Assembly: GCA_965242545.1 (NCBI GenBank)
Contig: OZ251456.1
Coordinates: 21,146 to 85,145 of the forward strand
DNA from: a bacterium
GTDB taxonomy: Bacteria > UBA8248
DNA: 64,000 nucleotides
Direction: 5' to 3'
Below are positions 8,149 to 54,368 of this stretch, piece by piece. The number at the start of each line of letters is the position of its first letter. Position 1 is the stretch's first letter. The notes beneath the pieces were generated by a model. The model saw nothing but the letters and a program-made list of their open reading frames with translations. It had not been told where the DNA came from and searched no databases. A program made the position numbers and the translations under genes.

Positions 8149-9543
8149 CTAGAACCGCGCGAGGAGGCTCACGCTCCCGCCGACCTCCCTGTTCTCGCCG
8201 GCGGCGGAGAAGTCCACGGAACCCCGAATCTCGTATTTTCCCTCTGCCCAGGCGTGAACGCCCCCGGCCCGCAGCCGAACCCGGGACGCCTCGGCCCTCG
8301 CCTTCAGCCGCTCGCCCGAGACCCTCGCGCTCGTCCCCGCCGAGAAGTCGTGCTCGAAGCCGGCCGCCCCGAACAGACGACCCGCGCCCGTCCGCTTCTC
8401 CACGCTCACCCCCGCCGCGCCCGTGAACATCTCGCCGTCCTCGATCGACACCCGCGAACCCACCGAGTCCGTGAAGTCGTCCAGCGAGACAGAGGAATGA
8501 ACCAGCCGGACGCGCGGCGTGAACGTCAGCCCCCCGGATTCGACCCGGCGCCCCAGCTCGACGCCCGCCGCCCAGCCCGAACCCGACGCCCCCGTCTCCA
8601 GCGCGCCCCGCGCGTCGGAGTCCAGATCCGCCTCATACGCGGTCGCCTCGAGCTGGGCGTCCAGATAGAAGCCCCCGCCAAGCCCCACGGCGGCCGAGAC
8701 GCCCACGCCGCTGCCGCTCACCTCGATCTCCCCGCTCCCGTCCACCTTCGCCGAGCCTCGCCCGTGACGCGCCGAGAAGCCGAGCAGGGCGTTCGCGCCC
8801 AGGCTCACGTCCACGCCCACCCGGACGCCGTAGCGGTCGTATTCATACGTCACGCCCGTCTCGGAGGCGTCCGCCTCCCAGTCGCCGCTCGCGCCCTCCG
8901 CCCGCGCCCAGACGCCGCGCGGCGACCGCGGCGCGCTCATCCGCTCCTCATGCGAGAGCATCCCGTTCATCCTCAGCAGAACCGAGGGCAGCGCCTCGTA
9001 GAGCTCGCAGCGGCGATCCCGCGCCCGGACACAGGAAAACACCGAGAGGTCGAGCGTCGAGAGGTCGAGCGGCTCGTCCTGGTCCTCCACCTCGAAGGTG
9101 GCGCGGTCGGTGATATTCCCCTCCTCGTCCACGAGCTCGACCTTCACGGTCTCGGCGCCCTCGACGGAGCCGCCCACCCGCTCCCGGATCGCCTCGCCCA
9201 CGTCCTCCTCATCGTCCCGCACCCGCACCGTGAGATCCACCGTCTCGCCCTTGATAAGCGGTTCGTCCGGATCGTTGTGCTCGGACCGCTTCACTGTTCC
9301 CGTTTCTCCGACCGTTATTTCCGTGGGGACGCACGACTCAACGGTGCCTATCACCTGGCCGTGAATGATGATGGTCGACCTGGGCTTCTGACGCCGCTGC
9401 CCTTCCGGGCAGTCCTCCTGCGCCCGCGCCTCCCCGGCGGAAAGCGTCAGCGCCGCCAGAAGCGCGGCGAGGAGAGGGATTCCTCGTCTCGCGCCTTTTG
9501 AACCGGGTAAAGAGCGGTCGTCTCCGTACAATCGCTTTCTCAT
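8149..9543 (-). CDS. autotransporter (type Va) outer-membrane protein: signal peptide, short passenger, C-terminal beta-barrel
   Basis: The signal peptide is MRKRL...LLAALLAALTLSAGEARAQE. The C-terminal ~300 aa are homologous to the C-terminus of the giant protein at 24042..30692 (YEALPSVLL..ERMSAPRSPRG...VRLVHSSVSLDDFTD...AGVSVEKRT...). It ends in ...LLARF, an aromatic terminal residue typical of OMPs. Confidence 0.7.
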   Translation of the reverse strand: MRKRLYGDDRSLPGSKGARRGIPLLAALLAALTLSAGEARAQEDCPEGQRRQKPRSTIIIHGQVIGTVESCVPTEITVGETGTVKRSEHNDPDEPLIKGETVDLTVRVRDDEEDVGEAIRERVGGSVEGAETVKVELVDEEGNITDRATFEVEDQDEPLDLSTLDLSVFSCVRARDRRCELYEALPSVLLRMNGMLSHEERMSAPRSPRGVWARAEGASGDWEADASETGVTYEYDRYGVRVGVDVSLGANALLGFSARHGRGSAKVDGSGEIEVSGSGVGVSAAVGLGGGFYLDAQLEATAYEADLDSDARGALETGASGSGWAAGVELGRRVESGGLTFTPRVRLVHSSVSLDDFTDSVGSRVSIEDGEMFTGAAGVSVEKRTGAGRLFGAAGFEHDFSAGTSARVSGERLKARAEASRVRLRAGGVHAWAEGKYEIRGSVDFSAAGENREVGGSVSLLARF

Positions 9544-9731
9544 CTGAATCGTCCTCTCGATGAAGTGAAAGAATCCCCTGTTGCTATCCGCCGCTTCTCG
9601 AATTCAGTCCGCCGGTTGTCGTCGGAAGACGACGAGGCGGAGGCGCGCGTTCGCCGAGAAGGCGGACTTCACGCCTTCGGGAGCGAGGAAGACGCCGCCG
9701 GAGGGCGCCCGCTCCCGGAAAACGGTTTCCT

Positions 9732-9801
9732 GTTGAGCGTTGAGCGTTGAGCGTTGAGCGTTGAGCGTTGAGCGTTGAGCGTTGAGCGTTGAGCGTTGAG
9801 C
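9732..9801. repeat. heptanucleotide tandem repeat (GTTGAGC)x10
   Basis: Perfect 70-nt array ~190 nt upstream of the autotransporter start at 9543. It lies between that gene and the cas9 remnant. Confidence 0.9.
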
Positions 9802-10138
9802 GCCTTTTCCCAGCCTAACCCCTCCCGCCTCGGGGCGCAAGGGGGCGTCGGGGACGCGGGGTTTCCGAACGCGGGAGAGAGGAAGATTCTCCCGCGCGCG
9901 GGCGACGGTTCAGGCATGAAAAGACGGGCCTCCTCGATGAGGGTCGAAAGCTCGCCGGCGGAAAGCGGAACCCGTCTCCGCGGCGAGTGAAAGCGACGAT
10001 TTGGACAAGGTTACGAAAATCCGCCTCGGGCGTCAATCCGCCCCCGGAAAAGCGGGCGGGACGGGGGAGGAACCCCGCGCCGTTCGGCGAACGGAGGCGG
10101 GGGCGTTCCGACGGCGGGGCGCATGTATGCGCCCCGTT

Positions 10139-10336
10139 TCGCGTCTGGCGGCGCGCCAGACGGGCGTCCCGCCTCTTGCGGTTCTTCGGCGTCTTGCTCT
10201 TCCTGTCCACCATCTCCTGAAACGCGCGGACGCCCATGGCTTCGAGGCGCGCCGGGTCGCCCGCCTCGTCCTCCTCGACGAGCGCCCAGCCGATGGAGTT
10301 GGGCCCCAGGTCGAGACCCAGCGTCATGCGAGGCAT
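10139..10336 (-). pseudogene. cas9: cas9 N-terminal remnant (RuvC-I motif plus the start of the arginine-rich bridge helix), truncated after 66 codons
   Basis: MPRMTLGLDLGPNSIGWALVEEDEAGDPARLEAMGVRAFQEMVDRKSKTPKNRKRRDARLARRQTR. The GLDLGxNSIGWA catalytic-Asp motif sits at residue 9, and the R-rich helix GVRxF...RRxARRxTR matches type II-C Cas9 N-termini. Homology stops exactly where the palindrome GGGGCGCATGTATGCGCCCC (10116-10135) begins; the rest of ORF 9815..10336 is repeat-derived nonsense. Confidence 0.55.
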
Positions 10337-10351
10337 ATCGAAAATCTCCCC

Positions 10352-10380
10352 TTGACAATTCGCGCGGGACAGCCTATCAT
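10352..10380 (+). promoter_or_regulatory. strong sigma70-type promoter TTGACA-N17-TATCAT
   Basis: -35 at 10352-10357 and -10 at 10375-10380, divergent from and 16 nt away from the cas9-remnant ATG. Confidence 0.45.
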
Positions 10381-10384
10381 CATA

Positions 10385-10513
10385 GCAGTTTTAGCTGATC
10401 GATGCCTGCTCGCTTTTCTCAACAAGAAGAGAATCTTCGCAGGCAATTCCCCGAACGGGGAAACGACTCCACCCTCGCGATGCCTTCGGGCCCCTCCGGG
10501 GGTGTATTTTTTT
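10385..10513 (+). ncRNA. candidate structured small RNA (~130 nt), possible tracrRNA or crRNA-like relic
   Basis: The predicted transcript starts AGCAGUUUUAGCUGAUCGAUGCCUGC.... It has nested stems (UGCCUGC/GCAGGCA enclosing UUCUC/GAGAA, then UUCCCCGAACGGGGAA) and ends in a GC hairpin (GCCUUCGGGCCCCUCCGGGGG) plus a U7 run at 10507-10513, which is an intrinsic terminator. No ORF is present. Confidence 0.35.
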
Positions 10514-10685
10514 GACCCCCTCCTCCGATTCCCTCCCGGTCAATCTCTCTCCGTCCGCGGGGGGACGCGGATGTGCGTCCCGCCTCTCCCGCGTGGTTGA
10601 AAACGGGCGGCCTTGCGGCCTACACTTGGACGCGCCGCCTCGCGGCTTCCCGGCAATCTATCGGCGACGAAAAGGAGGAGCGGAC

Positions 10686-11192
10686 ATGAGAAAATTCTTC
10701 GGTGGAGCGGCGGCGCTGCTGGCCGCCGCGGCCCTCGCTTTCGGCGCGGGGAGCGCCCTCGCCGCCGAGAGCGGCAGCTTCGAGTTCTACGAGAGCGCCG
10801 TCCACGACTATTCGACCATGAAGCACGCGGACGCGGACGTCACCGTCGGGCCCCTGCATGGAACGGCCACCATCGTCAAGAGCAGCGGCGGCCCCTTCAG
10901 GGAGGGCGCGAACTTCGGCGCGACGTGCCTCGTCTACGCGCGGAAGACGAAGAAGGGCGTCCACCTCGAGGCGCCCTGCTCGTTCACCGACGCGGCGGGC
11001 GACAAGCTCTGGCTGATCGCCCGAAGGAGCATGGGCGACATCCAGGTCGGCGGCGGGGGGCGGGGCGTCCAGCGCATCGTGGGCGGCACAGGCAAATACG
11101 CCGGGGTGACCGGAAACTGCCCCTACCGGACGGACTACCTGCCGGACAAGTGGCTCGTCTCCAAATCGACCTGCAGCTGGAGCAGGCCGTGA
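10686..11192 (+). CDS. secreted small Cys-containing protein, tandem paralog 1
   Basis: Signal peptide MRKFFGGAAALLAAAALAFGAGSALAAE. Four conserved Cys (ATCLVYARKT...APCSFTD...NCPYR...STCSW). SD GGAGGAG upstream. Confidence 0.6.
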   Translation: MRKFFGGAAALLAAAALAFGAGSALAAESGSFEFYESAVHDYSTMKHADADVTVGPLHGTATIVKSSGGPFREGANFGATCLVYARKTKKGVHLEAPCSFTDAAGDKLWLIARRSMGDIQVGGGGRGVQRIVGGTGKYAGVTGNCPYRTDYLPDKWLVSKSTCSWSRP

Positions 11193-11722
11193 TCGCGCGC
11201 GGAGCGAAGCGGAAGGCGGGGAAACCGCCCGGCGCGCTCCCGGCCGCCCTGGCGGTCGCCGCGGGCCTCGCCCTCGCGGCGGGAGCCGCCCTCGCCGCCG
11301 AAAGCGGGAGCTTCGAGCTCCACGAAACCTACGCTCCCGACCTGGCGACCATGAAGCACGCGGACGCCGAGATCACCGCGGGCTCCCTGCGCGGAGCGGC
11401 CGCCATCCTCGAAAGCGGCGGCGGCCCCTTCAGGGAGGGCGCGAACTTCGGCGCGGCGTGCCTCGTCTACGCGCGGAAGACGGAAAAGGGCGTCCGCCTC
11501 GAGGCGCCCTGCGCGCTCACCGACGCCTCGGGCGACAGGCTCTGGCTGCTGGTCGAAAAGCACGAGGGCGGCGTCCGGAACAACGGCGGGCGGGGCGTTC
11601 AGCGCATCGCGGGCGGCACCGGCAAATACGCCGGGGCGCGCGGAGAATGCGCCTATCGGTCGGAAACCCTGCCGAACGGACGCCTCGTCGTCCAATCGAC
11701 CTGCAGCTGGCGCAGGCCGTAA
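11189..11722 (+). CDS. secreted small Cys-containing protein, tandem paralog 2
   Basis: ~70% identical to paralog 1 (AACLVYARKTEKGVRLEAPCALTD...ECAYRSETLPNGRLVVQSTCSW). The GTG start overlaps the paralog-1 stop (GTGA). Confidence 0.55.
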   Translation: MIARGAKRKAGKPPGALPAALAVAAGLALAAGAALAAESGSFELHETYAPDLATMKHADAEITAGSLRGAAAILESGGGPFREGANFGAACLVYARKTEKGVRLEAPCALTDASGDRLWLLVEKHEGGVRNNGGRGVQRIAGGTGKYAGARGECAYRSETLPNGRLVVQSTCSWRRP

Positions 11723-11801
11723 GCCCCGGGCGCGCGGGCTTCGCCTTCCGCGGGGCTTCATTCTTCCCGCCGCCACGCTTTCGGAGAACGGGAGAAAAAG
11801 C

Positions 11802-13619
11802 GTGAAATTCCTGATGACGCCGCTGCTCGCCCTCCTCCTCGCGGCCGCGAACCCGGGCGGCGCGGCGGCGGCTCCCCCGTTGCGCGCCCTGCCTCCGGGA
11901 GCGGCCTACGGCGACTACGCCGTAGGGACGGTCACGGGCTTCGCCGTGGACAGGCATCAGCGCTTCGACCCGTGGAACGCCGCCTACGGCCGCCCCGAAT
12001 ACCGCGCCCTGCTGCGCCGGGTGGAGGCGTCGGGCCAGACCCGCGCGGTGGTGTTTCAGCTGTGGTATCCGGCTGCGCCGGACCCCGCGCGCGGGCGCGT
12101 CGCCGGGCCGCGCTCCCCCCTCCACGCGGCGAGCGGGCGGCGGGCGAAATTCTTCGACTTCTATTTTCGGGATCGCTCCCTGGCGGATCGCGTCGCCGCG
12201 GCCGCCCAGGTGGTGATGCCCCCGTTCATTCACCTTCGCGGCGGCGGAACCCTCGCCGAAGCGAAGGGCGCGGCGCGGCGGGACGCCCTCCGCGAGATTC
12301 GCCGGCGCATCCTCGACGCCCCGCTCGGGGCGTGGCTCCGCGCCCGGCCCGCCGAGGGGAGGTTTCCCCTCGTGGTTCTCGCCCACGGACTCGCCGGCAG
12401 CCACGGCATGTGGAGCTCCTTCGCCGAGTTTCTCGCCTCGCGCGGCTACGCGGTCGCGGCGCCCACCTTCGTCTCCGACGGCGGCCTGCCGCTCGCGTTC
12501 CACGATCCGGATTCGCCCTTCGCCGGGAGCGCCTCGCCCGATGAACTGAAGCGCGCCTACGCGCTGATGCTCGGCGAGGTCCGGGTCGTCCCCTACTTCT
12601 ACCGCCTCCTGTTCGGGCGCGAGGGCCGGGGCTTCGCGCCGCCGGCCGGCTTCGCGCCGCCGAAGGAGAGGGTCGTCCCCGGCGGCGTGGAGCGCGCCAC
12701 GACGATGATGCGCAACCTCTTTCGCCAGCGGGTGGCCGACCTGGCGCTGACGCTGCGAACCGCGCGGCTGCTCGGCGAGAAGAAGGAGACCTGCCGCGCC
12801 GCGCTCTCCGCCATGGGCGCGACCAGCGCGGCGCGCGGCCTGTGCGGCCTCCTGGCGGGGCGCATCAACGGCGCGCGGGCGGGCGTCGCCGGCCATTCGC
12901 TCGGCTCCATGACGGCGCAGCTCGCGGCGAATCACCTGCCGGGCGCGGCCGCGGCGCTCGGCTTCAACAACGCCCCGCCCTTCACCTGGACGCCGGAGGA
13001 GATGTTCGGCGCGGGCGAGACGGAGGACGGCGGCGAGACGCTGCCGGCGGGCAGCCGCAAGCCCCTGATGATCCTGATCGGCGACGAGGACGACTTCGTG
13101 CAGCGCATCTTCATCGGCCTCTTCCAGTCGGCGGTGAAGGCGGCCGGGGGCGACCCCGCCGCGGCCTTTCCGCTCGCCCCCGAGCGCGCCGCTCCCGATC
13201 GCGCGCGGAATCCCCAGCCGGTCGCGCTCAGCGCGTGGCGGCGCGCGCTCTCCGACCGCCTGCTGGTGATCGCGCGCGACACCGACCACTTCACGCTCGC
13301 GGAGGACTTCGCGCGGCTCTTCCCCTGGCCGGCGTTCCTGCGCGGGGAGCTTCCCTTCGGCCAGACCCCGGAGCGGACGCGCAAGCCGACGGGCGCGCGC
13401 GCCTTCGCCCCGCCGGGGGGCGCGGGGGAGCGCTACGTCCAGCCGGGCTGGATCGAAGTCCCCGGCGCGGGCCGGGCGTATCTGCCCCACGTGATCCGCG
13501 ACTGGTACGCGCGGGCGTGGTTCGACTGGCACCTCAAGGGAGACGGGAGCGCCCGCGAGCGGCTTCGGAGGCCCGACCCGTTCGGGGCCATGACCTCCGT
13601 CCGGCGGCGGATCCGCTGA
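11802..13619 (+). CDS. secreted alpha/beta hydrolase (lipase / PAF-acetylhydrolase-like)
   Basis: Signal peptide MKFLMTPLLALLLAAANPGGAAAA. Has a GHSLGS nucleophile elbow. GTG start with an upstream SD. Confidence 0.6.
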   Translation: MKFLMTPLLALLLAAANPGGAAAAPPLRALPPGAAYGDYAVGTVTGFAVDRHQRFDPWNAAYGRPEYRALLRRVEASGQTRAVVFQLWYPAAPDPARGRVAGPRSPLHAASGRRAKFFDFYFRDRSLADRVAAAAQVVMPPFIHLRGGGTLAEAKGAARRDALREIRRRILDAPLGAWLRARPAEGRFPLVVLAHGLAGSHGMWSSFAEFLASRGYAVAAPTFVSDGGLPLAFHDPDSPFAGSASPDELKRAYALMLGEVRVVPYFYRLLFGREGRGFAPPAGFAPPKERVVPGGVERATTMMRNLFRQRVADLALTLRTARLLGEKKETCRAALSAMGATSAARGLCGLLAGRINGARAGVAGHSLGSMTAQLAANHLPGAAAALGFNNAPPFTWTPEEMFGAGETEDGGETLPAGSRKPLMILIGDEDDFVQRIFIGLFQSAVKAAGGDPAAAFPLAPERAAPDRARNPQPVALSAWRRALSDRLLVIARDTDHFTLAEDFARLFPWPAFLRGELPFGQTPERTRKPTGARAFAPPGGAGERYVQPGWIEVPGAGRAYLPHVIRDWYARAWFDWHLKGDGSARERLRRPDPFGAMTSVRRRIR

Positions 13620-13638
13620 GCGGGGAGGCGCGCCGCGC

Positions 13639-15144
13639 CTAGGCGCGCGTCCTTTTGATCTCGCCGCGTCCGAGGCGCGCCATGTAGTCGTCCAGCTCCC
13701 GCTTCACGACGGGGGCGAGGAAGTAGAGCCCCAGGACGTTGGGCACGCAGATGAGGAACACCAGCGCGTCCGAAATGTCGAGAATCGGCCCCAGACTCAC
13801 CGCGCAGCCCAGGACGACGAAGAAGCAGAACGCGACCTTGTAGACGGTCTGCCCCGTCGGGCCCTCGCCGAACAGATACGTCCAGCCCTTCAGGCCGTAG
13901 TAGGACCAGGAGATCATGGTCGAGAAGGCGAAGAGCGTCCCGGCGAAGGCGAGCGGAATCGGGAACCAGGAGAGCTGCGTCCTGAAGGCGGCCGAGGCCA
14001 TGGCGATGCCCGTGGCGCCGTCCGCGTAGCCCGGATGCGCCGCGGCCGTCGTGGCGAGCACGAGCGCCGTGATCGTGCAGATGACGATGGTGTCGATGAA
14101 GGGCTCGAGCAGGGAGACCAGCCCCTCGGTGACGGGCTCGTCGGTTCGTACGGCGGCGTGGGCGATGGAGGCCGAGCCGATGCCCGCCTCGTTCGAGAAG
14201 ACGGCGCGCTGAAAGCCGATGATGAGCGCCCCGAGCGCCCCTCCCGCCACGCCCGCGCCCGTGAACGCCCCGCTCACGATGTCGCCGATCGCCTGCGCGA
14301 TGGCCGCCGGGCCGTTCATCGCGATGACGACGAGCGCGAAGAAGCAGTAGAGCGCCGCCATGAACGGGACGAGCTTCTCCGCCGTCGCCGCGATGGAGCG
14401 GATGCCGCCCACGATCACCATGAACACCACGCCGGCCATGACGAGGCCCACGAGCCAGCCCAGCCCGTCGAGCGCCCCGCCCGCCACGTTGTTGATCTGC
14501 ACGTAGGCCTGGTTCGACTGGAACATGTTGCCGATGCCCATCGCGCCGACGAGGATGCCGACCGCGTAGAACGCGCCGATGAACCTGCCGAAGCCCGCCA
14601 TGCCGCGCTCGGAGAAGCCGCGGCGCAGGTAGTGCATGGGGCCGCCGGAGACCGAGCCGTCCGGGTTCTCGCTGCGGTATTTGACGCCCAGGACGCACTC
14701 CACGAACTTCGTGGACATGCCCAGGAAGCCCGCCATGATGAACCAGAAGGTCGCGCCCGGCCCGCCGACCGTGACCGCCACCGCCACCCCGCCGATGTTC
14801 CCGATGCCCACCGTGCCCGAAACCGCCGTGGCCAGCGCCTGGAAGTGCGAGACCTCGCCGGGGTGGCGCGGATCGGCGTAGTCGCCGCGCGTGAGGCGCA
14901 CCGCGTGCCGGAAGCCGCGAACGTTCACGAAGCCCATCTTGAAGGTGAAGAAGACCGCGCCGGCGACCAGCCAGAGGACGACCAGCGGAAGCTGCGCGCC
15001 GAAGACCGGAACCTTGAAGAAGACGATCGCCCCGAAGGCGGAGGCGATCGGGGCGGTCGCCGCGTTGATCGCGTCGTCCACCCCCGCGAAGGCGGGCCGG
15101 GGCGCGAGGACGCAGGGGACGAGCGCGGCCATGAATTTTCTCAT
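13639..15144 (-). CDS. alanine/glycine:cation symporter (AGCS) family transporter
   Basis: The internal start MRKFMAALV... has an AGGAGG SD. The characteristic AGCS motifs ...FWFIMAGFLGMSTKFVECVLG... and ...FSNEAGIGSASIAHAA... are present. Confidence 0.75.
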   Translation of the reverse strand: MRKFMAALVPCVLAPRPAFAGVDDAINAATAPIASAFGAIVFFKVPVFGAQLPLVVLWLVAGAVFFTFKMGFVNVRGFRHAVRLTRGDYADPRHPGEVSHFQALATAVSGTVGIGNIGGVAVAVTVGGPGATFWFIMAGFLGMSTKFVECVLGVKYRSENPDGSVSGGPMHYLRRGFSERGMAGFGRFIGAFYAVGILVGAMGIGNMFQSNQAYVQINNVAGGALDGLGWLVGLVMAGVVFMVIVGGIRSIAATAEKLVPFMAALYCFFALVVIAMNGPAAIAQAIGDIVSGAFTGAGVAGGALGALIIGFQRAVFSNEAGIGSASIAHAAVRTDEPVTEGLVSLLEPFIDTIVICTITALVLATTAAAHPGYADGATGIAMASAAFRTQLSWFPIPLAFAGTLFAFSTMISWSYYGLKGWTYLFGEGPTGQTVYKVAFCFFVVLGCAVSLGPILDISDALVFLICVPNVLGLYFLAPVVKRELDDYMARLGRGEIKRTRA

Positions 15145-15209
15145 CGGGATTTCCTCCTGGAATCGCCCGCCGGCGCCCGCGAGGCTCGCCGGCGCCGGGC
15201 GGACGCGGC

Positions 15210-15986
15210 CTAGTGGCGCAGAATCTGGTTCAGGAACGTCTTGGTCCGGTCGTGCTTCGGATTGATGAAGAACTGCTGGGGCTCGTTCTGCTCCACGATC
15301 TCGCCCTCGTCCATGAAGATCACCCGGTCGGCGACCTCGCGCGCGAAGCCCATCTCGTGGGTGACGCAGAGCATGGTCATGCCCGACTCGGCCAGGCCGA
15401 CCATCACCTCCAGCACCTCCTTGATCATCTCGGGATCGAGGGCGGAGGTGGGCTCGTCGAACAGCATGACGCGCGGGTCCATGCACAGGGCGCGTGCGAT
15501 GGCGACGCGCTGCTGCTGGCCGCCGGAGAGCTGGCCCGGGTACTTGTCCGCCTGCTCGGGTATCTTGACGCGGTTCAGATACCGCATGGCGGTCTCCTCG
15601 GCCTCCTTTTTCGGAACCTTCCGCACCCAGACGGGCGCCAGCGCGCAGTTCTCCAGAACCGTCAGGTGCGGAAACAGGTTGAAGCTCTGGAACACCATGC
15701 CGACCTCGGAGCGCACCTCGTCGATGTTTCTGAGGTCGTTGGTGAGCCGCACCCCGTTGACCATGATGTCGCCCTCCTGGTGCTCCTCCAGCCGGTTAAG
15801 GCACCGCACCAGCGTGGACTTGCCGGAGCCGGAGGGGCCGCAGATGACGATGCGCTCGCCCCGCGCCACCTGCAGGTTGATGTCCTTGAGAACGTGGAAG
15901 GCGCCGAACCACTTGTTGACGCCGCGCATCTCGACCGCCGGACTCTCCGCCTTCACCTCGCCGCCTCCTTTCGCCTCGCGGGTCAT
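15210..15986 (-). CDS. polar amino acid ABC transporter ATP-binding protein
   Basis: Walker [10 protein letters not shown], signature [15 protein letters not shown] and Walker [12 protein letters not shown]. The ATG overlaps the upstream permease stop (ATGA). Confidence 0.85.
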
Positions 15987-17107
15987 CGCTCCTCCCCGCG
16001 CGAAAGCCTCTTTTCGAGCCACAGGCTGTAGCGCGACATCGAGAAGCAGAAGATGAAAAACCCGACGGCGATGAAGACGTAGAGATCGACGTCGAGCCCC
16101 AGCCATTCCTGATCCGCCACGATCGCCCGCGAGACGCCCAGCAGGTCGAAGATGCCGACGAGCGCGACCAGCGTGGTTTCCTTGTAGAGGGCGATGGCGG
16201 TGTTCACGACGCCGGGGATGGATATCTTGAGCGCCTGCGGCAGGACGATGAGCGCCGTGGTCTTCCAGTAGCCCATGCCCAGCGCGTCGCCCGCCTCGTA
16301 TTGCCCTCTCGGTATCGCCTGGAGGCCGCCGCGGATGACCTCCGCCATGTAGCCCGAGGCGAACAGGCACATGCCCACCACCGCGCGCAGATAGCCGTCG
16401 ATGGTCACCCCCTCGGGCAGGAACAGGGGCAGCGCGATGTTGGAGAAGAACAGGATGCAGATCAGCGGCACGCCCCGGATGTATTCGATGAAGACGACGC
16501 ACATCGCGCTGATGACGGGCATCTGCGAGCGGCGCCCGAGCGCCAGCAGAACGCCCAGGGGAATCGAGACCGCGATGCCGGTGACGCCCATCGTGATGGT
16601 GAGCAGCAGCCCGCCCCACCTCGCCGACTCGACGAAGGGGAGCCCGCCGAAGCCGCCGTAGAGAAGCCAGTAGGCGATGAAGGGGAAGGCGGCGCAGAAC
16701 GCCAGCCCGTATTTGCGCCCCGGCGCCCCGTCGTAAAGCCCGTAGTAGAGGGCGGCGAGCAGCAGGCAGAAGGCCAGGTTGGGCCGCCAGTGCTCGGCTT
16801 CGGGATAGAAGCCGTACATCAGCTGATCCCAGCGGGCGATGACGACCGACCAGCAGGCGCCGCCGGCGCCCGCGCACGCCGCCCGCGTGTCGCCGAAGGC
16901 GGCGTCGAAGATCATCCAGTTCAGGAGCGGCGGGATCGTGAAGTAGAGAAGCGCGAGCGAGGCGAGCGTCAGGAAGCCGTTGAAGTAGCTCGAGAAGAGG
17001 TTCTCCCGCATCCAGCCCAGCGCGCCGATCATCGTCGGCGGGGGCGGCCGGCTCGGCAGAGGGTTCCAGGCGGCGTCCCGCGCCGCTTCCGGGCTCGTCT
17101 CGCTCAT
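15983..17107 (-). CDS. amino acid ABC transporter permease (AapM-like)
   Basis: 374-aa polytopic protein with the EAA-like loop motif; part of the aap-like operon. Confidence 0.75.
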
Positions 17108-17111
17108 CGGA

Positions 17112-18290
17112 TCAGCGCTCCGTCAGCTTCACGCGCCTGTTGTACCAGTTCATGAAGGCCGAGATGAGCAGGCTGATGACGAGATAGGTTGCCATCGTCA
17201 TCGCCATGATCTCGATTTCCTTGCCTGTCTGGTTCAGCGCGATGCCGGCGTAGACCGCGAACAGCTCGGCGAAGCCGACCGCGTAGGCCAGCGAGGAGTT
17301 CTTGGTGAGGTTCAGATACTGGCTCGTCAGCGGGGGGATGATCACCCGCATCGCCTGCGGAATGATGATGAGCCGCATGTTCAGACCGCGCCTGAGACCG
17401 AGGGCGCGCGCCGCCTCCGTCTGCCCCTTGTGGACCGCCAGGACGCCGGCGCGGACGATCTCGGAGATGAAGGCGCCGGTGTAGAGCGTCAGCGCGAGGA
17501 GGATGGCGATGAACTCGGGGCGGATCACCATGCCGCCCCGGAGGTTGAAGCGCGTCGCCCGGGGGTGGAGCAGCTCGACGGGCTGGCCCGCCAGAAAATA
17601 GGCCGCCAGCGGCAGGCCCGCCAGGAGGGCGAGCGACGCCCAGAAGACGGGAAACGTCTCGCCGGTCGCTTCCTGCCGGGCGCGCGCCCATCCGCGGAGA
17701 GCGACCGCCGCCGCCGCGGCCGCGAAAAGCGCCGCCGCCACCCACCAGAAGGCCGGCTGCGGGTCGGGCGCCGGGCCGAACAGGCCCCGGTTGTTCAGAT
17801 AGAAGCCGAACCGGGGAGCGTCCGCGCGGCTCCAGCGCGGCAGCCCCAGGAGGATCGCGTACCAGAAGATGATCTGGAGAAGCAGCGGGATGTTCCGCAT
17901 GAATTCGACGTAGCAGTAGACGATCCGGCTGAGCAGCCAGTTCCGGGAGAGCCGCATCATGGCGAGAACGAAGCCGAGCATCGTCGCCAGCGCGCAGCCC
18001 AGGCTCGACACCAGGAGCGTGTTCAGAAGCCCCACGAAATAGACGTCGAGAACCGGCGAGGTCGGCGAGTAGGGAATCAGGGTCAGCGGAATGTCGAAGC
18101 CCGCCGGCTGGGTGAGGAACCAGAAGCTGATCTCCTTGCCCAGGCTGCCCATGTTCCGCGCCGCGTTGTAGGTCAGCGCGAACAGGACGAGCACCGCCAG
18201 GCCGAAGACGAGCGTCTGCGCCAGAATCGACCGGAAGCGCAGGTCGGTCCAAATCGAATCGCGTCCCCCGGCCGCCGCCTCATTCGCCAT
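17112..18290 (-). CDS. amino acid ABC transporter permease (AapQ-like)
   Basis: 392-aa polytopic permease in the same operon. Confidence 0.75.
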   Translation of the reverse strand: MANEAAAGGRDSIWTDLRFRSILAQTLVFGLAVLVLFALTYNAARNMGSLGKEISFWFLTQPAGFDIPLTLIPYSPTSPVLDVYFVGLLNTLLVSSLGCALATMLGFVLAMMRLSRNWLLSRIVYCYVEFMRNIPLLLQIIFWYAILLGLPRWSRADAPRFGFYLNNRGLFGPAPDPQPAFWWVAAALFAAAAAAVALRGWARARQEATGETFPVFWASLALLAGLPLAAYFLAGQPVELLHPRATRFNLRGGMVIRPEFIAILLALTLYTGAFISEIVRAGVLAVHKGQTEAARALGLRRGLNMRLIIIPQAMRVIIPPLTSQYLNLTKNSSLAYAVGFAELFAVYAGIALNQTGKEIEIMAMTMATYLVISLLISAFMNWYNRRVKLTER

Positions 18291-20989: not shown

Positions 20990-22149
20990 CGTCGGGAACG
21001 CGGCGCGCTCTCCCGCTCATCGTCTGCCTCGCCCTGGGCGCGTGCGGAGCGGCGGGCCGCGGCGCCCCACCGGCCGAGTCCCGCGCCCGCCTGAAGCCGC
21101 CCTTCGACCTCCCGAAGCCGCGCGGCGCGAAGGGGAGGCACGGGCGCGAAGAAGCCCCCTGCGGCGCGCCTCCCCCGCCCGTCCGCGACCTGACCTTCGG
21201 GGGCTTCTACGCCGGGGGGAGCGGCTCGTCCGTCATCGACCCCGCCGCGATGCGCCGCTACCGCGCGGCGCGCGCCCCCGTCCGCTCCTTTCAGCGCGCC
21301 CTCCTCGCGCGAACCGACCGCTACGTCGAGACGCGCCGCCCCCGCACCGCCGCCTGCGCGCTGGCGTGGCTCGACCGCTGGGCGCGCGCGGGCGCCTTTC
21401 TGGGCCGGGTCAGCCGGCAAGGGGGCTACGAGCGCAAATGGGCGCTCGGGGCGGTCTCGATGGCCTATCTCAAGGCGCGCGGCGCGAGCGGACTCGACCC
21501 CGCCCGGAAAAAAGCGGTCGAGCGGTGGATCGGCGAATGGGCGCGGGTCGTCCACGCGGACTACGCGGATCCGGCCAAATCCCGCCGGACGAGCCGCAGG
21601 AACAACCACGCCTATTGGGCCGCCTGGTCGGTCGGACTCGCCGCCGTCGTCCTCGACGACCGGAGCCTCCTCGACTGGGCGATGACGCGCTACCGCCGCG
21701 CCACGCGCCAGATAACCCCCGAGGGCGTCCTGCCGCTCGAACTCGCGCGCGGCTCCAAGGCGCTTCACTACCACCTCTACGCGGCCGCCGCGCTGGTGAT
21801 GCTCGACGAGCTGGGCGCGCGCAACGGATACGCGGCGGGCGGCGCCGCGCTCGGGCGGCTCGTCCGGCTCGTCGTCGCGGGCCTTTCGGACCCGGCGTTT
21901 TTCGTCCGCAGGACCGGAAAGCGGCAGAACTGGGTGGGACGCCTCGACGGCTCGAAGCTCGCCTGGATGGAGCCCCGCTACGCCCGCCGCCGGGAGCCCG
22001 CGCTCGCGCCCTGGATCCGCAGATTCCGCCCCATGAGGAGCCGGCTCCTGGGCGGCGACGCGACGCTGCTCTACGGCGCGCCCCTCCCGCCCCGCCGGGG
22101 CGCGGTTCGCGGGAGGCTTCCTCCCCGGAAACGCCCCCCAAGCCGCTGA
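20986..22149 (+). CDS. alginate lyase family (PL5-like) lipoprotein
   Basis: The GTG start overlaps the MFS stop (GTGA). Has a lipobox LIVCLALGAC, and an RRNNHAYWAAW motif resembling the NNHSYW motif of AlgL-type lyases. Confidence 0.5.
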   Translation: MTSGTRRALPLIVCLALGACGAAGRGAPPAESRARLKPPFDLPKPRGAKGRHGREEAPCGAPPPPVRDLTFGGFYAGGSGSSVIDPAAMRRYRAARAPVRSFQRALLARTDRYVETRRPRTAACALAWLDRWARAGAFLGRVSRQGGYERKWALGAVSMAYLKARGASGLDPARKKAVERWIGEWARVVHADYADPAKSRRTSRRNNHAYWAAWSVGLAAVVLDDRSLLDWAMTRYRRATRQITPEGVLPLELARGSKALHYHLYAAAALVMLDELGARNGYAAGGAALGRLVRLVVAGLSDPAFFVRRTGKRQNWVGRLDGSKLAWMEPRYARRREPALAPWIRRFRPMRSRLLGGDATLLYGAPLPPRRGAVRGRLPPRKRPPSR

Positions 22150-22620
22150 ACCACCCCGCCTTTGGTCGCCGAACGGCGCGGGACGCATGTAGAAGAACGC
22201 CGCGGAGACGCCCCCGTGGCCGTCCCCTACAATGGAATATCGCCACCCTCGCCGTAGGGGGCGCATATATGCGCCCCGATTGTAGGGTTGGCGACGATGC
22301 GGATTGCCGTAGGGACAACCCCCTGTGGTTGTCCGTTGTCAACGGCGCGCGCCGGTCTGGTTTTCACCGCCGGGACGTTGCGCCCGTAGGTGAAGCGCCA
22401 AGGGGCGCTTCCCACACATACATGCGCCCCGGTTGTGGAATTGCCGACGATGCGGCGCGGACAACCACAGGGGGTTGTCCCTACGAAGGCGGAATCACCA
22501 CCGGCCCGCAGGGGTGGTTCCTTCCCGGGCCCGCCCCACGGTTCGCGGCGGCGCGCCCGCCCGTGTTCGCCGAACGGCGGGGGCATTGCCGTTCCGTCGG
22601 CGATTCGGTATGATCGCGCG
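22150..22620. repeat. palindromic intergenic repeat cluster (modules A-E)
   Basis: Contains GGGGCGCATATATGCGCCCC, GGACAACC-N-GGTTGTCCCTACG (twice), and CACCGCCGGGA-N-CCGTAGGTGAAGCGCCAAGGGGCGCTTCCCACACATA. Confidence 0.7.
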
Positions 22621-23923: not shown

Positions 23924-24023
23924 CCGACTCACCGACTCACCGACTCACCGACTCACCGACTCACCGACTCACCGACTCACCGACTCACCGACTCACCGAC
24001 TCACCGACTCACCGACTCACCGA
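23924..24023. repeat. octanucleotide tandem repeat (CCGACTCA)x12.5
   Basis: Perfect 100-nt array immediately 5-prime of the giant autotransporter gene's ATG at 24042. It lies within the TTG-initiated ORF 23901. Confidence 0.9.
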
Positions 24024-24041
24024 CATGAGAAGGGGCGCGCG

Positions 24042-48334: not shown

Positions 48335-49402
48335 TCAGTCCTGGGCGACGATGGGGTTTCTCAAAACGCCCAAGCGCTCGACTTCGCACTCCACCACGTC
48401 TCCCGGCTTGAGCAGAAACGGCTCCGGGTCTTCCTGTTCGAGAGCCACGCCGCAGAACGTCCCCGACGAGATGATGTCGCCGGGCTCCAGCGACATCTGG
48501 CTGTAGAAGGCGACGAGATCGGGTATCTTGAAAATCATGTCGGTCAGGCGTTCGTCCTGGCGCGTCTCGCCGTTCACCCGGCATTGGACGCGCAGTGATT
48601 CCGGGTTCGGGACTTCGTCCGAGGTGACGACGTAGGGGCCGATGGGGTTGGTGGCGTCGAAGTTTTTTCCGAGGAACACGCCGCCCAGCGCGGGAGTTCT
48701 CTGCACCTCGCGCGCCGTGATGTCGTTGTAGACCGCGTAGCCCAGGATGACGTCATAGGCGTTCTCGGGCTTCACGTCCTTGCAGTACGCGCCGATGACG
48801 ATGCCGACCTCCACCTCGTAGTCGAGCATCCGGGTTTGCTTCGGGTAGAGCACGGGCTCTTCATGGCCGATGAGCGAGGTATGGAAGCGCGGCGCGCCGG
48901 GCACGTTTTCGGGAACCGCGTGGCCCGTGTTCGCCACGTGCTTGTTCGAGTTCAGCCCGGTGTGGCAAAACTTGCCCGGACGCGGAATCGGCGCCCTGAG
49001 GCGCGCGTGTCCGCTTTTCAGGGCCGCCAACTCCCCATCGGGTCCCGCCGGTTCTCCGCCGGCCTCGATGGTCGCCTCCGCGTGGTCGAGAGCCGCGCGC
49101 GCGGCGGCCAGCGCCGGCTCCCCGCCGCAGAGAAAATCGCGCATGTCTCCCGGAATCCGTGCGTTCGCCATGGCGTAGGGGCGTCCCTCGCTTCCTCTTT
49201 TTGCGAGCCAGTCAGCGTAGGCGAGCCGCAAGTCGAGCATCCGCCCGTCGGACAGGACGGCTCCCAGGCGGTCTCCGGCGGCGCCCGGCGATAAATTCCT
49301 GTAGGTGGCGAGTTTCAATGGGCATTCTCCTTCATGGATTGCGAGGCTTGAGCGATAAGCTGAAAACGGGAACCGCGCCTGGACGGGCGGGTGCAGCGTC
49401 AA
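48335..49402 (-). CDS. FAH-family hydrolase (second copy)
   Basis: ...LDYEVEVGIVIGAYCKDV... and ...GDVVECEVERLGVLRNPI.... 5-prime end uncertain. Confidence 0.6.
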   Translation of the reverse strand: MTLHPPVQARFPFSAYRSSLAIHEGECPLKLATYRNLSPGAAGDRLGAVLSDGRMLDLRLAYADWLAKRGSEGRPYAMANARIPGDMRDFLCGGEPALAAARAALDHAEATIEAGGEPAGPDGELAALKSGHARLRAPIPRPGKFCHTGLNSNKHVANTGHAVPENVPGAPRFHTSLIGHEEPVLYPKQTRMLDYEVEVGIVIGAYCKDVKPENAYDVILGYAVYNDITAREVQRTPALGGVFLGKNFDATNPIGPYVVTSDEVPNPESLRVQCRVNGETRQDERLTDMIFKIPDLVAFYSQMSLEPGDIISSGTFCGVALEQEDPEPFLLKPGDVVECEVERLGVLRNPIVAQD

Positions 49403-49603
49403 CGGCTCATCCTACAAAACGAAAGCGCAGGCTGTCCACGAAGCGGGACGAGGGAAGGCGCGCCGATTGAAGAGACCAGGATTCGGCGGCAGAGCCTCAC
49501 GCGCCGGACGCGCTCTTGACGCCGCGGCGAAAGAAGGGGATAAAGTATCATTCAAGTGAAGTCGATGCGTTCGTTTCGCGGTTGTTTTTATCAAGGTTCC
49601 GTC

Positions 49604-50623
49604 ATGCGCACCTATATCATCAGACGCTGTCTTCAAAGCTTCATCGTGTTCGGGGCGATTCTTCTCATCGTGTTTTCGATGCTGCAGATCACGGGAAACC
49701 CCGCGGCGGTTCTGATGCCGCTCGATTCCTCCGAGGAGGACATTCAGGCGTTCAGCAGGGAGATGGGCTTCGATCAGCCAATCCCGGTTCAGTTCGCCAA
49801 GTTCATCCTGGGTTCGGATCTGGTGGACGACCTCTTCGGCTTCGAGAAACCCAAGGAGGAAGTCCGTCAAATCGAACGCGACACCGACGCGCCCAAGATA
49901 GTCAAGACCAAAGGCGTCATTCGCGGGGATTTCGGCTTTTCCTACAGGCACGAGATCCCGGCGATGGGCCTCGTGCTGGAGCACTTTCCGAACACGGTGC
50001 TTCTCGCCTTCGTGGCGGTCTTGATAGCCGTGGTAATTTCCATCCCCGCGGGGGTTCTTTCGGCGACTTTCCGCAACACGTGGATTGACTACACCAGCTC
50101 CGTCGGCGCGATGTTCGGCCAGTCGATGCCGAATTTCTGGCTCGGGCTTCTGCTCATCATCTTTTTCGCCGTTTATCTGGACTGGCTGCCCACGTCGGGC
50201 TTTGACGCCTGGTATTACATCATCCTGCCGGCGGTCACGGCGGGCCTTTACGCCACCGCGCGCATCACGCGCCTGGTGCGCTCCCAGATGCTGGAGGTGC
50301 TGGGCATGGACTATGTGCGCACGGCGCGCTCGAAGGGCATCGTGGAGTGGCTTGTGGTGGTTCGGCACGCCCTCAAGAACGCGTCCATCCCCGTCGTTAC
50401 CCTGGTGGGCTTCGAGCTGGGCATCCTGCTCGGCGGCACGGTGGTGACGGAGGCCGTCTTCGCGTGGCCGGGCGTGGGTTTTCTGGTGGTGGACGCGATC
50501 AACAATCAGGACTATCCCATCGTCCAGGCGGCGGTGGCGCTGCTGGCGTTCGTGTTCGTGTTCGTGAATCTCGTGGTGGATATACTCTACGCTTGGCTCG
50601 ACCCGAGAATTTCCTACAGTTAG
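49604..50623 (+). CDS. ABC transporter permease (DppB/OppB-like)
   Basis: MRTYIIRRCLQSFIVFGAILLIVF.... ABC-2 type transmembrane domain. Confidence 0.75.
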   Translation: MRTYIIRRCLQSFIVFGAILLIVFSMLQITGNPAAVLMPLDSSEEDIQAFSREMGFDQPIPVQFAKFILGSDLVDDLFGFEKPKEEVRQIERDTDAPKIVKTKGVIRGDFGFSYRHEIPAMGLVLEHFPNTVLLAFVAVLIAVVISIPAGVLSATFRNTWIDYTSSVGAMFGQSMPNFWLGLLLIIFFAVYLDWLPTSGFDAWYYIILPAVTAGLYATARITRLVRSQMLEVLGMDYVRTARSKGIVEWLVVVRHALKNASIPVVTLVGFELGILLGGTVVTEAVFAWPGVGFLVVDAINNQDYPIVQAAVALLAFVFVFVNLVVDILYAWLDPRISYS

Positions 50624-50648
50624 GCGACGGAAGACAGGGGCGATTTTT

Positions 50649-51578
50649 ATGGTCGTGGACGACAGGGCGGCGACGCTCGATATGGAAATGGATGATGACA
50701 TGGAGCGCGGGCCGACCGATTTCCGGTTGGCCATGCAGGAGCTCAAGCGGCGGCCGCCGGCGATATTCGGCGCGCTGTTCGTCGGCATCGTCATCATCTT
50801 CGCCCTCGCGCCGGAGCTGTTCTCCCCGCTGGATCCGCTCTCCCAGGATTTGGGACGGTATCTCAAGGCGCCCGGCTACGTGGACAAGGCGGGCGACGTC
50901 TATTGGCTGGGCACGGACCAGCAGGGCCGGGACATCCTGAGCCGCATCATCTGGGGTTCGCGCATCTCGCTCATCGTCGGCATCGCCGCCGTCCTAGTGA
51001 GCGGGCTCATCGGCATCACCGTCGGCATTTTCGCGGGCTATTTCGGCGGGTGGGTGGACACCGTCATCAGCCGCATCATCGACACGGCGCTGGCGGTTCC
51101 CTTCATCCTGCTGGCCATCAGCCTGGTGGCGATTTTGGGGCCGAGCCTGCAGAACATCGTCCTCGTCATCGCGCTGAGGACCTGGCTGGTCTATGCGCGA
51201 GTGGTTCGCGCGGAGGTTCTCTCCATCAAGGAAAACGAATTCATCACCGGAGCGCAGGCCACCGGCTGCGGCACGCTGCGGATTCTGTTCGTCTATCTTT
51301 TCCCGAACGTCGCCTCGACAACCATCGTCATCGCCACGCTCTACCTGGGCCGGATGATCATCATCGAATCCGCTCTCTCCTTCCTGGGCCTGGGCGTGCC
51401 GCCCCCCACGCCTACGTGGGGCGGGATGCTCGCCGACGGCAGGAGCTTCCTCGATACGGCCTGGTGGATCGCGCTCTTCCCGGGCCTCATTCTGATGCTC
51501 ACGGTCCTGAGCGTGAATCTTCTGGGCGACTGGCTGCGCGACGTGCTCGACCCGAGGATGAAGCGTCTCGCCGAGTAG
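50649..51578 (+). CDS. ABC transporter permease (DppC/OppC-like)
   Basis: Polytopic protein with an EAA-like motif. Confidence 0.75.
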   Translation: MVVDDRAATLDMEMDDDMERGPTDFRLAMQELKRRPPAIFGALFVGIVIIFALAPELFSPLDPLSQDLGRYLKAPGYVDKAGDVYWLGTDQQGRDILSRIIWGSRISLIVGIAAVLVSGLIGITVGIFAGYFGGWVDTVISRIIDTALAVPFILLAISLVAILGPSLQNIVLVIALRTWLVYARVVRAEVLSIKENEFITGAQATGCGTLRILFVYLFPNVASTTIVIATLYLGRMIIIESALSFLGLGVPPPTPTWGGMLADGRSFLDTAWWIALFPGLILMLTVLSVNLLGDWLRDVLDPRMKRLAE

Positions 51579-51602
51579 CCCCCAGAGCGGGAGGCCGCCC
51601 CC

Positions 51603-52595: not shown

Positions 52596-52683
52596 GAAGA
52601 GCGCGGCGCGGCGACGCTCTCCCCGGGGGCGCTTCGGGCCGGTTTCCGCGCGTCGGTCCAAGGGAAGCGTTCGCCCTCGTCCG

Positions 52684-53895: not shown

Positions 53896-53998
53896 GGAGA
53901 ATCCTCTGTCCGGGTTTTCGCGTGTTCACGAAGCGGGGGGAATGCTATCATCCGGCTTGTTCCATGAAAATCGACGAGGCTTTGTCGTGGAGAAAACC

Positions 53999-54368
53999 AT
54001 GGGCTATCGCGGAATGCACGTCGTGGACTCCGACGCGCACTATCTCGAGGAAATTCGGGATTTCGCCAAATATCTGAAAGGCCCCGCCGTCGAGCGCTTC
54101 GCCGACTGGAGCGGGCGATACCACATGCCTGCCCTGGTGGGGGAGCAATACGACGTCATGCTCCACGGCCGCACGGTGCGTGGGCGCCGACGGCAGGGTG
54201 GAGGAGCACTACGCGCGCGAGGAGGCGGACGTCATCGTCTGCCCCATGCACGGCTGGGAGTTCGAGGTCAGGACGGGGGAATGCCTCGCCAACCGCAGGC
54301 GAAAAGCGCGGCGCTTTCCCGTGGAAACGAACGGGGAGGACATTTACGTCATCCTGCCGGGAAGGTGA
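53999..54368 (+). pseudogene. fused gene remnants: amidohydrolase N-terminal fragment joined to a Rieske [2Fe-2S] C-terminal fragment
   Basis: Frame 1 reads MGYRGMHVVDSDAHYLEEIRDF..., an amidohydrolase-like N-terminus of only ~60 aa. Frame 2 reads ...VIVCPMHGWEFEVRTGECLANRRRKARRFPVETNGEDIYVILPGR*, a Rieske second Cys/His box plus C-terminus with no first box. Neither fragment is full length. Confidence 0.5.
54303..54368 (+). repeat. direct repeat copy 1 (island boundary, att-like)
   Basis: GCGCGGCGCTTTCCCGTGGAAACG-AACGGGGAGGACATTTACGTCATCC. It is repeated at 57716-57775 as GCGCGGCGCTTTCCCGTGGAAACGGGCGGAGAGGACATTTACTTCATCC. Confidence 0.7.

What the first reader, a model, noticed from the sequence alone, without database searches (positions are those of the whole stretch)
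10139..10336. Orphan cas9 N-terminal fragment truncated exactly at a palindromic repeat element
66 codons encode a textbook Cas9 start: the RuvC-I motif LGLDLGPNSIGWALV with a catalytic Asp, then the arginine-rich bridge-helix onset GVRAFQ...RRDARLARRQTR, most like type II-C enzymes. Homology ends at the first base of the palindrome GGGGCGCATGTATGCGCCCC. The remainder of the locus (HNH and PI domains, cas1 and cas2, the array) is absent from the window. A heptamer microsatellite and an autotransporter gene occupy the expected position. This is a footprint of a lost type II CRISPR-Cas system. The repeat elements appear to have mediated the deletion.
Basis: partly seen in the sequence, partly recalled or inferred. 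Interest (0 to 1): 0.7.

Follow-up and report, generated by a model that had tools for sequence, protein, structure and literature searches.

The report
Cas9 gene stump with intact tracrRNA
This is the leftover first 65 codons of a type II-C cas9 gene, next to a tracrRNA gene that still looks intact; close relatives carry the complete CRISPR-Cas system at the same spot, so it is an ordinary, well-documented case of immune-system loss.

Summary
On the minus strand, 10336..10140 encodes the first 64-65 residues of a Cas9: the RuvC-I motif with the catalytic Asp, then the start of the Arg-rich bridge helix. It matches NCBIfam TIGR01865 at E=2.4e-15 and is 94% identical to the N-terminus of a 993-aa Cas9 from a closely related metagenomic organism.

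Three related contigs (L006, L007, L008; 82-96% nucleotide identity to the window) continue at this point into full cas9-cas1-cas2 and a 36-nt-repeat array. L008 is collinear with the window's neighbouring genes. tblastn finds no other piece of Cas9, Cas1 or Cas2 in the 64 kb, and no CRISPR repeat.

It has a near-consensus promoter and an intrinsic terminator. It is the tracrRNA of this Cas9 clade, and its 5' end pairs along all 36 nt of the relatives' CRISPR repeat.

Homology stops 4 nt before a REP-like palindrome that has 7-8 copies in the window. Adjacency is the only evidence that the repeat caused the deletion.

A second, independent stump plus tracrRNA (L001) breaks about 20 nt away. 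I could not explain that.

Verdict: a real relic, a known kind of thing, of modest interest.

The parts
10140..10336 (-). cas9 stump: start codon to codon 65 (RuvC-I motif with the catalytic Asp at residue 9, then the first part of the Arg-rich bridge helix)
   Evidence: TIGR01865 E=2.4e-15. 94% aa identity to residues 1-64 of the full-length Cas9 P0028. blastn homology to L006, L003, L002 and L008 ends at 10137-10141. No frameshift or stop inside the stump; 5 synonymous and 5 non-synonymous codon differences from L006.
9815..10139 (-). read-through tail of the stump ORF (107 codons), not homologous to Cas9
   Evidence: No Pfam match. No similarity to the intact loci. Only 21% identical columns beyond the junction.
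10387..10513 (+). tracrRNA gene divergent from cas9. Anti-repeat about 10387-10424, a UUCCCC/GGGGAA hairpin, then a terminal hairpin and U-tract. The start site is inferred from the promoter.
   Evidence: Conserved at the same place upstream of full-length cas9 in L002, L003, L006, L007 and L008. 95% identical to L006, against 80-88% for the flanking non-coding DNA. The duplex with the relatives' crRNA-sense repeat spans 36 nt at -55.3 kcal/mol; shuffled repeats give -22.0 +/- 3.2. Consensus fold with a compensated pair, C-G versus A-U. No Rfam family matches.
10352..10380 (+). sigma-70-type promoter of the tracrRNA gene (TTGACA, 17 nt, TATCAT)
   Evidence: 11 of 12 consensus positions. The -35 box is conserved in relatives.
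10480..10513 (+). intrinsic terminator of the tracrRNA
   Evidence: GC-rich hairpin followed by 7 T. Conserved in relatives.
10116..10135 (.). REP-like palindrome GGGGCGCATGTATGCGCCCC, 4 nt beyond the end of cas9 homology
   Evidence: 7-8 related copies in the window against 0.01 expected. Most other copies carry GTAG/CTAC tags; this one does not.
10074..10108 (.). second short repeat module beside the palindrome (mosaic repeat region)
   Evidence: 84-86% similar to window 22148-22182 and 22552-22583, both of which lie near other palindrome copies.
10686..11192 (+). 168-aa signal-peptide protein gene, the conserved neighbour of the tracrRNA in intact loci (a synteny anchor, not part of the CRISPR system)
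   Evidence: A gene of 166-168 aa sits in the same position and orientation in L006, L007 and L008. 96.8% nt identity to L006. No Pfam family.

Best explanation
The window carries the decayed remains of a type II-C CRISPR-Cas locus. The ancestor had a divergent tracrRNA gene followed by cas9, cas1, cas2 and an array of 36-nt repeats with 30-nt spacers, transcribed antisense to cas9. A deletion or replacement of at least 4.4-4.9 kb removed cas9 from codon 66 onward, together with cas1, cas2 and the array. It joined the stump to a repeat-rich intergenic region upstream of an autotransporter gene.

The stump has only RuvC-I and half a bridge helix, so it cannot act as a nuclease. The tracrRNA gene still has its promoter, anti-repeat, scaffold hairpins and terminator, and is probably still transcribed. 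Without Cas9 and crRNAs it has no known job.

Shown here: the identity of the stump, the synteny with intact loci, the absence of the rest from the window, and the identity and intactness of the tracrRNA sequence. Inferred: the direction of the event (loss), tracrRNA transcription, and the lack of function.
For: Cas9 identity.

Intact loci in relatives. L006 aligns to window 11261..10140 at 92.8%, then runs on into a 993-aa cas9, cas1 and cas2. L008 is collinear with window 17933..10137, covering the permease, ABC ATPase, Na/Ala symporter, hydrolase and 166-aa gene, and then continues into cas9, cas1, cas2 and the array. Arrays with the repeat ATTATAGCTGATCGATGCCTGCCCGCAATTCACAAC at period 66 are in L006, L007 and L008; L003 has a 94%-similar repeat.

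Absence from the window. tblastn with Cas9, Cas1 and Cas2 of L006 finds only Cas9 residues 1-64. The repeat core occurs only inside the tracrRNA. TRF finds no array.

tracrRNA. Chylinski et al. 2013 (PMC3737331) report anti-repeats mostly upstream of cas9 in II-A and II-C loci, and antisense array transcription in N. meningitidis and C. jejuni. Both match this geometry.

None of the 120 best relatives of this Cas9 clade sits on a contig of 3,087,465 bp, which is the length of the contig carrying the window's stump ORF.
Against: Only 64 kb of a contig of about 3.09 Mb could be read, so a second and more distant type II locus that uses this tracrRNA cannot be excluded. The far end of the deletion was not found, so 'simple deletion' and 'replacement or rearrangement' cannot be told apart. 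The stump has no stop or frameshift and the tracrRNA is better conserved than the neighbouring non-coding DNA. Both facts also fit continued selection, although a recent loss explains them equally well.
Confidence: 0.88

Rival explanations
1. The stump and tracrRNA form a retained, selected module. The orphan tracrRNA would have been co-opted, for example as a regulatory small RNA or as a partner for a Cas9 supplied in trans, and loci would be trimmed recurrently at the bridge-helix coding stretch.
For: A second, independent case exists. L001 (56% GC, different flanking genes, different Cas9 sub-clade) keeps the same divergent tracrRNA and a stump whose homology ends at about codon 58, roughly 20 nt from the window's break. 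The window's tracrRNA keeps a near-perfect promoter and terminator and is 95% identical to L006, against 80-88% for adjacent non-coding DNA.
Against: L001's tracrRNA looks decayed. It has 4 changes in the 17-nt anti-repeat core that is invariant in the six other copies, and its U-tract is broken. The window is so close to intact relatives (93-97% nt) that too little time has passed for decay to show. The stump's codon differences are 5 synonymous to 5 non-synonymous, which is no sign of purifying selection. A 66-aa query preferentially recovers stumps of about this length. No target or partner was identified.
Confidence: 0.06
2. Assembly artefact: contigs were joined wrongly at a short repeat, and in the real genome cas9 continues.
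For: The junction lies 4 nt from a multi-copy palindrome. A related metagenomic contig (L009) breaks inside the nearby microsatellite, so this region is hard to assemble.
Against: The palindrome is only 20 bp and its flanks are unique. The stump ORF sits on a contig of 3,087,465 bp in NCBI/ENA. No other cas9, cas1 or cas2 fragment is in the window. No Cas9 of this clade is recorded on a contig of that length.
Confidence: 0.04
3. The fragment comes from a non-Cas9 RuvC protein (IscB or TnpB).
For: Weak Pfam RRXRR match, E=0.005, 17 bits against a cut-off of 25.
Against: TIGR01865 Cas9 E=2.4e-15. 94% identity to the N-terminus of a 993-aa protein with Cas9_a, HNH_4 and RuvC_III domains, followed by cas1, cas2 and an array. 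The tracrRNA lies alongside.
Confidence: 0.01

Closest known systems
Type II-C CRISPR-Cas loci (Neisseria meningitidis / Campylobacter jejuni type)
   Same: The relatives' loci consist of a cas9 of about 990 aa, cas1 and cas2, with no csn2 or cas4. They have 36-nt repeats and 30-nt spacers. The repeat in crRNA sense, GUUGUG...GCUAUAAU, resembles the Nme repeat ends (from my own knowledge). The array is read antisense to cas9, as reported for Nme and Cje (PMC3737331). The best solved-structure relatives are Cas9 chains of about 1050-1090 aa, including the 6JDQ/6KC8 group, which I recall as NmeCas9.
   Different: In the window only the tracrRNA gene and 65 codons of cas9 remain. Here the tracrRNA is upstream of and divergent from cas9, whereas from memory Nme's lies downstream of cas9. 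This Cas9 clade (motif FQEMVDRxxKTPKN) comes from uncultivated bacteria, some labelled Nitrospinota, and as far as I could find has not been characterised.
Defective or degenerate type II loci (Chylinski et al. [quoted passage not shown]
   Same: Partial loss of type II components is a known outcome. Truncated cas9 genes are seen often enough to be filtered out of surveys.
   Different: Here the loss is nearly complete and the tracrRNA is the surviving intact part. The intact syntenic state is documented in relatives at 82-96% nucleotide identity.
GTAG-tagged REP elements / BIMEs (PMC3733652, PMC2817692)
   Same: A short GC-rich palindrome in many extragenic copies. Most copies are flanked by GTAG/CTAC and clustered with other small repeat modules.
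   Different: The copy at the junction lacks the tag. No RAYT gene was looked for. A role in the deletion is only suggested by position.

Membership tests
Cas9 (TIGR01865, type II effector) | N-terminal RuvC-I motif with catalytic Asp, followed by an Arg-rich bridge helix | tested here: met
   LGLDLGPNSIGWA with Asp9; KRRDARLARRQ. TIGR01865 E=2.4e-15 over profile positions 2-51. Aligns to residues 13-74 of an NmeCas9-type PDB chain.
Cas9 (TIGR01865, type II effector) | REC lobe, RuvC-II/III, HNH and PAM-interacting domains (a complete protein of about 1000 aa) | tested here: not met
   tblastn with full Cas9 of L006 and L003 finds only residues 1-64 in the window. The tail of the ORF has no Pfam domain. 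This is a gene fragment, not a Cas9 enzyme.
Type II-C CRISPR-Cas locus | cas9 + cas1 + cas2 without csn2 or cas4, plus an array and a tracrRNA | tested here: not met
   Met in relatives L003, L006, L007 and L008. In the window cas1, cas2 and the array are absent. The window holds a remnant, not a locus.
tracrRNA | Anti-repeat complementary to the cognate CRISPR repeat | tested here: met
   36-nt duplex with the repeat of L006, L007 and L008 at -55.3 kcal/mol; 200 shuffles give -22.0 +/- 3.2. The opposite strand of the repeat does not pair. No cognate repeat remains in the window itself.
tracrRNA | Own promoter and Rho-independent terminator, encoded next to cas9 | tested here: met
   TTGACA-17-TATCAT and hairpin plus T7. 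The -35 box lies 16 nt from the cas9 start codon. The same arrangement occurs in five intact loci.
tracrRNA | Expressed, and bound by Cas9 with crRNA | not testable with these tools
   No expression data. No Cas9 is left in the window.
REP (GTAG-tagged extragenic palindrome) | Short imperfect palindrome, multi-copy and extragenic | tested here: met
   12 strand-matches at 7 sites against 0.01 expected, plus one further variant copy.
REP (GTAG-tagged extragenic palindrome) | Conserved GTAG tetranucleotide at one end | tested here: inconclusive
   Present as GTAG/CTAC at the other copies but absent at the junction copy 10116-10135.
REP (GTAG-tagged extragenic palindrome) | Cognate RAYT (TnpA-REP) gene in the genome | not tested
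   Not searched. Only 64 kb of the genome was available.
IscB / TnpB | Best match to the IscB-type RRXRR/RuvC N-terminus rather than to Cas9 | tested here: not met
   RRXRR E=0.005, below cut-off, against Cas9 E=2.4e-15 and 94% identity to a full Cas9.

The most novel reading that the evidence does not exclude
The orphan tracrRNA is kept because it still does something, for example acting as a regulatory small RNA or serving a Cas9 brought in by a mobile element. On this reading the two independent breakpoints about 20 nt apart, in the bridge-helix coding stretch, reflect a specific recurrent process that disarms type II-C loci while sparing the tracrRNA.
Probability: 0.06. Interest if true: 0.6.

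Novelty: new member of a known kind. Interest (0 to 1): 0.27.

Why it matters
This is a clean natural before-and-after pair for CRISPR-Cas loss. Near-identical organisms carry either the complete type II-C system or only a 65-codon stump plus the tracrRNA, in the same gene neighbourhood. That is useful for annotation: the 173-aa ORF should be marked as a cas9 pseudogene and the tracrRNA annotated. It is also useful for studies of how often and how bacteria shed Cas9 systems. As a by-product, the work defines the tracrRNA, repeat and locus layout of an uncharacterised compact Cas9 clade of about 990 aa. It does not reveal a new mechanism.

Tried and rejected
1. Rfam, at gathering thresholds over the whole window and at permissive thresholds over 9500-10800, found no family for the small RNA.

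2. The first word-index protein search with the stump returned only short fragments. This briefly suggested a family of mini-proteins. The exhaustive HMMER scan and a search with a full-length relative showed that this was an effect of the search method.

3. The 53-56-aa 'members' of the P0028 cluster are unrelated antisense ORFs.

4. A metagenome scan with a 20-nt tracrRNA core gave only two chance hits inside coding sequence. The genome scan gave two true loci, L002 and L003.

5. I tried to find the far breakpoint. L007's right flank (SCO1/SenC) is not in the window. The autotransporter's closest relative sits on a 1.9-kb contig that ends in the microsatellite. No REP palindrome occurs in any related locus held.

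6. The window's exact stump ORF is not indexed for contig look-up.

7. A literature search for orphan tracrRNA or cas9 pseudogenes returned nothing specific.

8. I considered recombination between the tracrRNA anti-repeat and the array as the cause of the deletion and rejected it. The two are in inverted orientation, so recombination would invert the segment rather than delete it, and the break lies inside cas9.

Full report
**1. What is in the sequence**

The feature lies on the minus strand. ORF 10336..9815 (173 aa) begins MPRMTLGLDLGPNSIGWALVEEDEAGDPARLEAMGVRAFQEMVDRKSKTPKNRKRRDARLARRQTR.

- NCBIfam's Cas9 model TIGR01865 matches residues 5-66 to profile positions 2-51 of 1070 at E=2.4e-15.
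- The IscB-type Pfam family RRXRR reaches only E=0.005, below its cut-off.
- An exhaustive HMMER scan of 1.84 billion representative proteins gives 788 hits. The top ones are full-length Cas9 proteins of about 1000 aa aligned at their residues 1-64.
- PDB chains that I recall as N. meningitidis Cas9 align over residues 5-66.
- Asp9 in GLDLG is the RuvC-I catalytic residue by alignment.

The IscB/TnpB alternative is rejected.

**2. The intact counterpart exists, in the same place, in close relatives**

The first word-index search returned only short fragments. One of them, on contig L001, shared a conserved non-coding block upstream of the stump. Scanning genomes for a 23-nt core of that block found two loci with full-length cas9: L002 (a Nitrospinota MAG) and L003 (chromosome OY843592.1). 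In L003, cas9 is followed by cas1, cas2 and an array.

A search with L003's Cas9 returned a clade of about 20 proteins of 978-1009 aa, all with Cas9_a, HNH_4 and RuvC_III domains. The member closest to the stump is P0028, with 60 of 64 residues identical. Its contig L006, and the contigs L007 and L008 of two further members, encode cas9-cas1-cas2 without csn2 or cas4, which is the type II-C layout.

blastn against the window gave these alignments:

| Locus segment | Window segment | Identity |
|---|---|---|
| L006 177-1295 | 11261..10140 | 92.8% |
| L008 1-4293 | 17933..13638 | 91.4% |
| L008 4369-6749 | 13633..11251 | 88.0% |
| L008 6274-7285 | 11190..10137 | 82.4% |

The L008 alignment covers the permease, ABC ATPase, Na/Ala symporter, hydrolase and 166-aa gene. 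L008 then runs on into full cas9. Organisms that share the window's gene neighbourhood therefore carry the complete system exactly where the window has the stump.

**3. What is missing**

- tblastn with Cas9, Cas1 and Cas2 of L006 finds only Cas9 residues 1-64 (10336..10145) in the whole 64 kb.
- The repeat core TAGCTGATCGATGCCTGC occurs once, inside the small RNA gene.
- TRF shows no array.

Measured on L007 and L008, at least 4.4-4.9 kb has gone.

The stump ORF is recorded on a single contig of 3,087,465 bp. None of the 120 best members of this Cas9 clade sits on a contig of that length. This argues against a second close copy in the genome but does not prove it.

**4.

A TTGACA-17-TATCAT promoter (10352-10380, 11 of 12 consensus positions) lies divergent from the stump. 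A hairpin plus T7 terminator lies at 10480-10513. Together they bracket an RNA of about 127 nt.

The RNA is conserved at this position in all five intact loci. The arrays of L006, L007 and L008 have the repeat ATTATAGCTGATCGATGCCTGCCCGCAATTCACAAC on the cas9-sense strand, at period 66.

The complement of that repeat is GUUGUGAAUUGCGGGCAGGCAUCGAUCAGCUAUAAU. It pairs with the first ~38 nt of the window's RNA over the full 36 nt of the repeat, at -55.3 kcal/mol. Shuffled repeats give -22.0 +/- 3.2, and the other strand of the repeat does not pair.

This is the geometry described by Chylinski et al. 2013 (PMC3737331). [quoted passage not shown] Rfam has no matching family.

Identity of each window segment to L006:

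| Segment | Identity |
|---|---|
| tracrRNA | 95% |
| neighbouring 168-aa gene | 97% |
| adjacent non-coding DNA | 80-88% |
| stump | about 93% by direct nucleotide comparison (5 synonymous, 5 non-synonymous codon differences) |

**5. The junction**

Against L006, L007 and L008, homology runs through ...CGCCGCCAG(A)CGCG and ends at 10140. AAAC follows, then GGGGCGCATACATGCGCCCC on the minus strand (10135..10116).

This palindrome belongs to a family with 7-8 copies in the window. Most copies are flanked by GTAG/CTAC and clustered with other small hairpin modules. That is the signature of GTAG-tagged REP/BIME elements (PMC3733652, PMC2817692). The stretch 10074-10108 beside it is another repeat module.

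The junction copy lacks the tag. No such palindrome occurs in any related locus held. The distal breakpoint could not be located. L007's right flank (SCO1/SenC) is absent from the window, and the only relative of the autotransporter region ends in the microsatellite. The claim that the REP mediated the deletion therefore remains a positional suggestion.

**6. Explanation and rivals**

The best explanation, with confidence of about 0.88, is a dead relic of a type II-C locus. It consists of a non-functional cas9 5' stump plus an orphan tracrRNA gene that is probably still transcribed. Given 93-97% identity to intact relatives, the loss was probably recent.

The rivals are:
- a selected stump-plus-tracrRNA module (0.06);
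- an assembly chimera (0.04);
- a non-Cas9 RuvC protein (about 0.01, rejected).

One observation remains unexplained. L001 is a different organism, with 56% GC, different neighbouring genes and a different Cas9 sub-clade. It also keeps the tracrRNA and a stump that ends only about 20 nt upstream of the window's break. L001's tracrRNA shows decay in the otherwise invariant anti-repeat core and in the U-tract, which favours neutral relics. A 66-aa query also biases recovery toward stumps of this length. The coincidence is recorded in the notebook.

**7. Verdict**

The feature is real and is correctly read as a Cas9 footprint. The kind of thing is known: degenerate type II loci, with truncated cas9 genes routinely discarded in surveys. 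The added value is the documented intact syntenic state, the surviving tracrRNA, and the definition of the RNA components of an uncharacterised compact Cas9 clade. Interest is modest, at about 0.27.

Noticed in passing
L001:5100-5535 (ENA metagenome contig ERZ25069191 ctg366215): A second, independent cas9 stump (80-aa ORF, with homology to about codon 58) that has the same divergent tracrRNA, in a 56%-GC organism with different neighbours (a type I R-M methylase downstream). Its breakpoint is about 20 nt from the window's. Its tracrRNA anti-repeat core and U-tract carry changes not seen in the six other copies.
   Followed up: partly
window 9732-9802 and 23924-24024: Two perfect microsatellites, (GTTGAGC)x10.1 and (CCGACTCA)x12.6. 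Each lies about 140-260 nt upstream of an autotransporter gene: 9543..8149, and a giant repeat-rich gene ending at 30692 whose beta-domain is 75% identical at the DNA level to that of relative L009. The heptamer tract is also present in L009, where the contig ends within it. These are candidate phase-variation switches. The reading frame at the start of the giant gene (23901 versus 24161) is unclear.
   Followed up: partly
window 11248/11251 and 58006/58007; L007:9100-9120; L006:177-189: In L006 and L007, sequence matching window 48884-58006 (95.7%) is joined directly to sequence matching window 11248..10591. This fits an inversion of about 47 kb relative to the window and L008. In L007 the gene crossing window 58006 is cut at the join, so the window/L008 order looks ancestral.
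   Followed up: partly
window 10686-11192 and about 11226-11722: Tandem duplicate genes for a secreted protein of about 168 aa with no Pfam family, about 80% identical at the DNA level. L006, L007 and L008 show one copy next to the tracrRNA.
   Followed up: no
window 7927, 22258, 23223, 23702, 24063, 30776, 30901: Clusters of GTAG/CTAC-tagged palindromes (GGGRCGCAT..ATGCGYCCC), together with a second hairpin type (GGACAACC...GGTTGTCC). They flank the large autotransporter gene and give BIME-like mosaics. Similar modules lie at the 3' end of L009.
   Followed up: partly
L007:14709-14832 and L008:11537-11657: In both arrays two adjacent spacers are identical (GCTAGCCCCTCGTCCGCTA... in L007, CACCTCGTCCGCCACCTCG... 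in L008). L007 also has one 166-nt gap in the 66-nt period (14832-14941). These point to spacer duplication and a disrupted unit.
   Followed up: no
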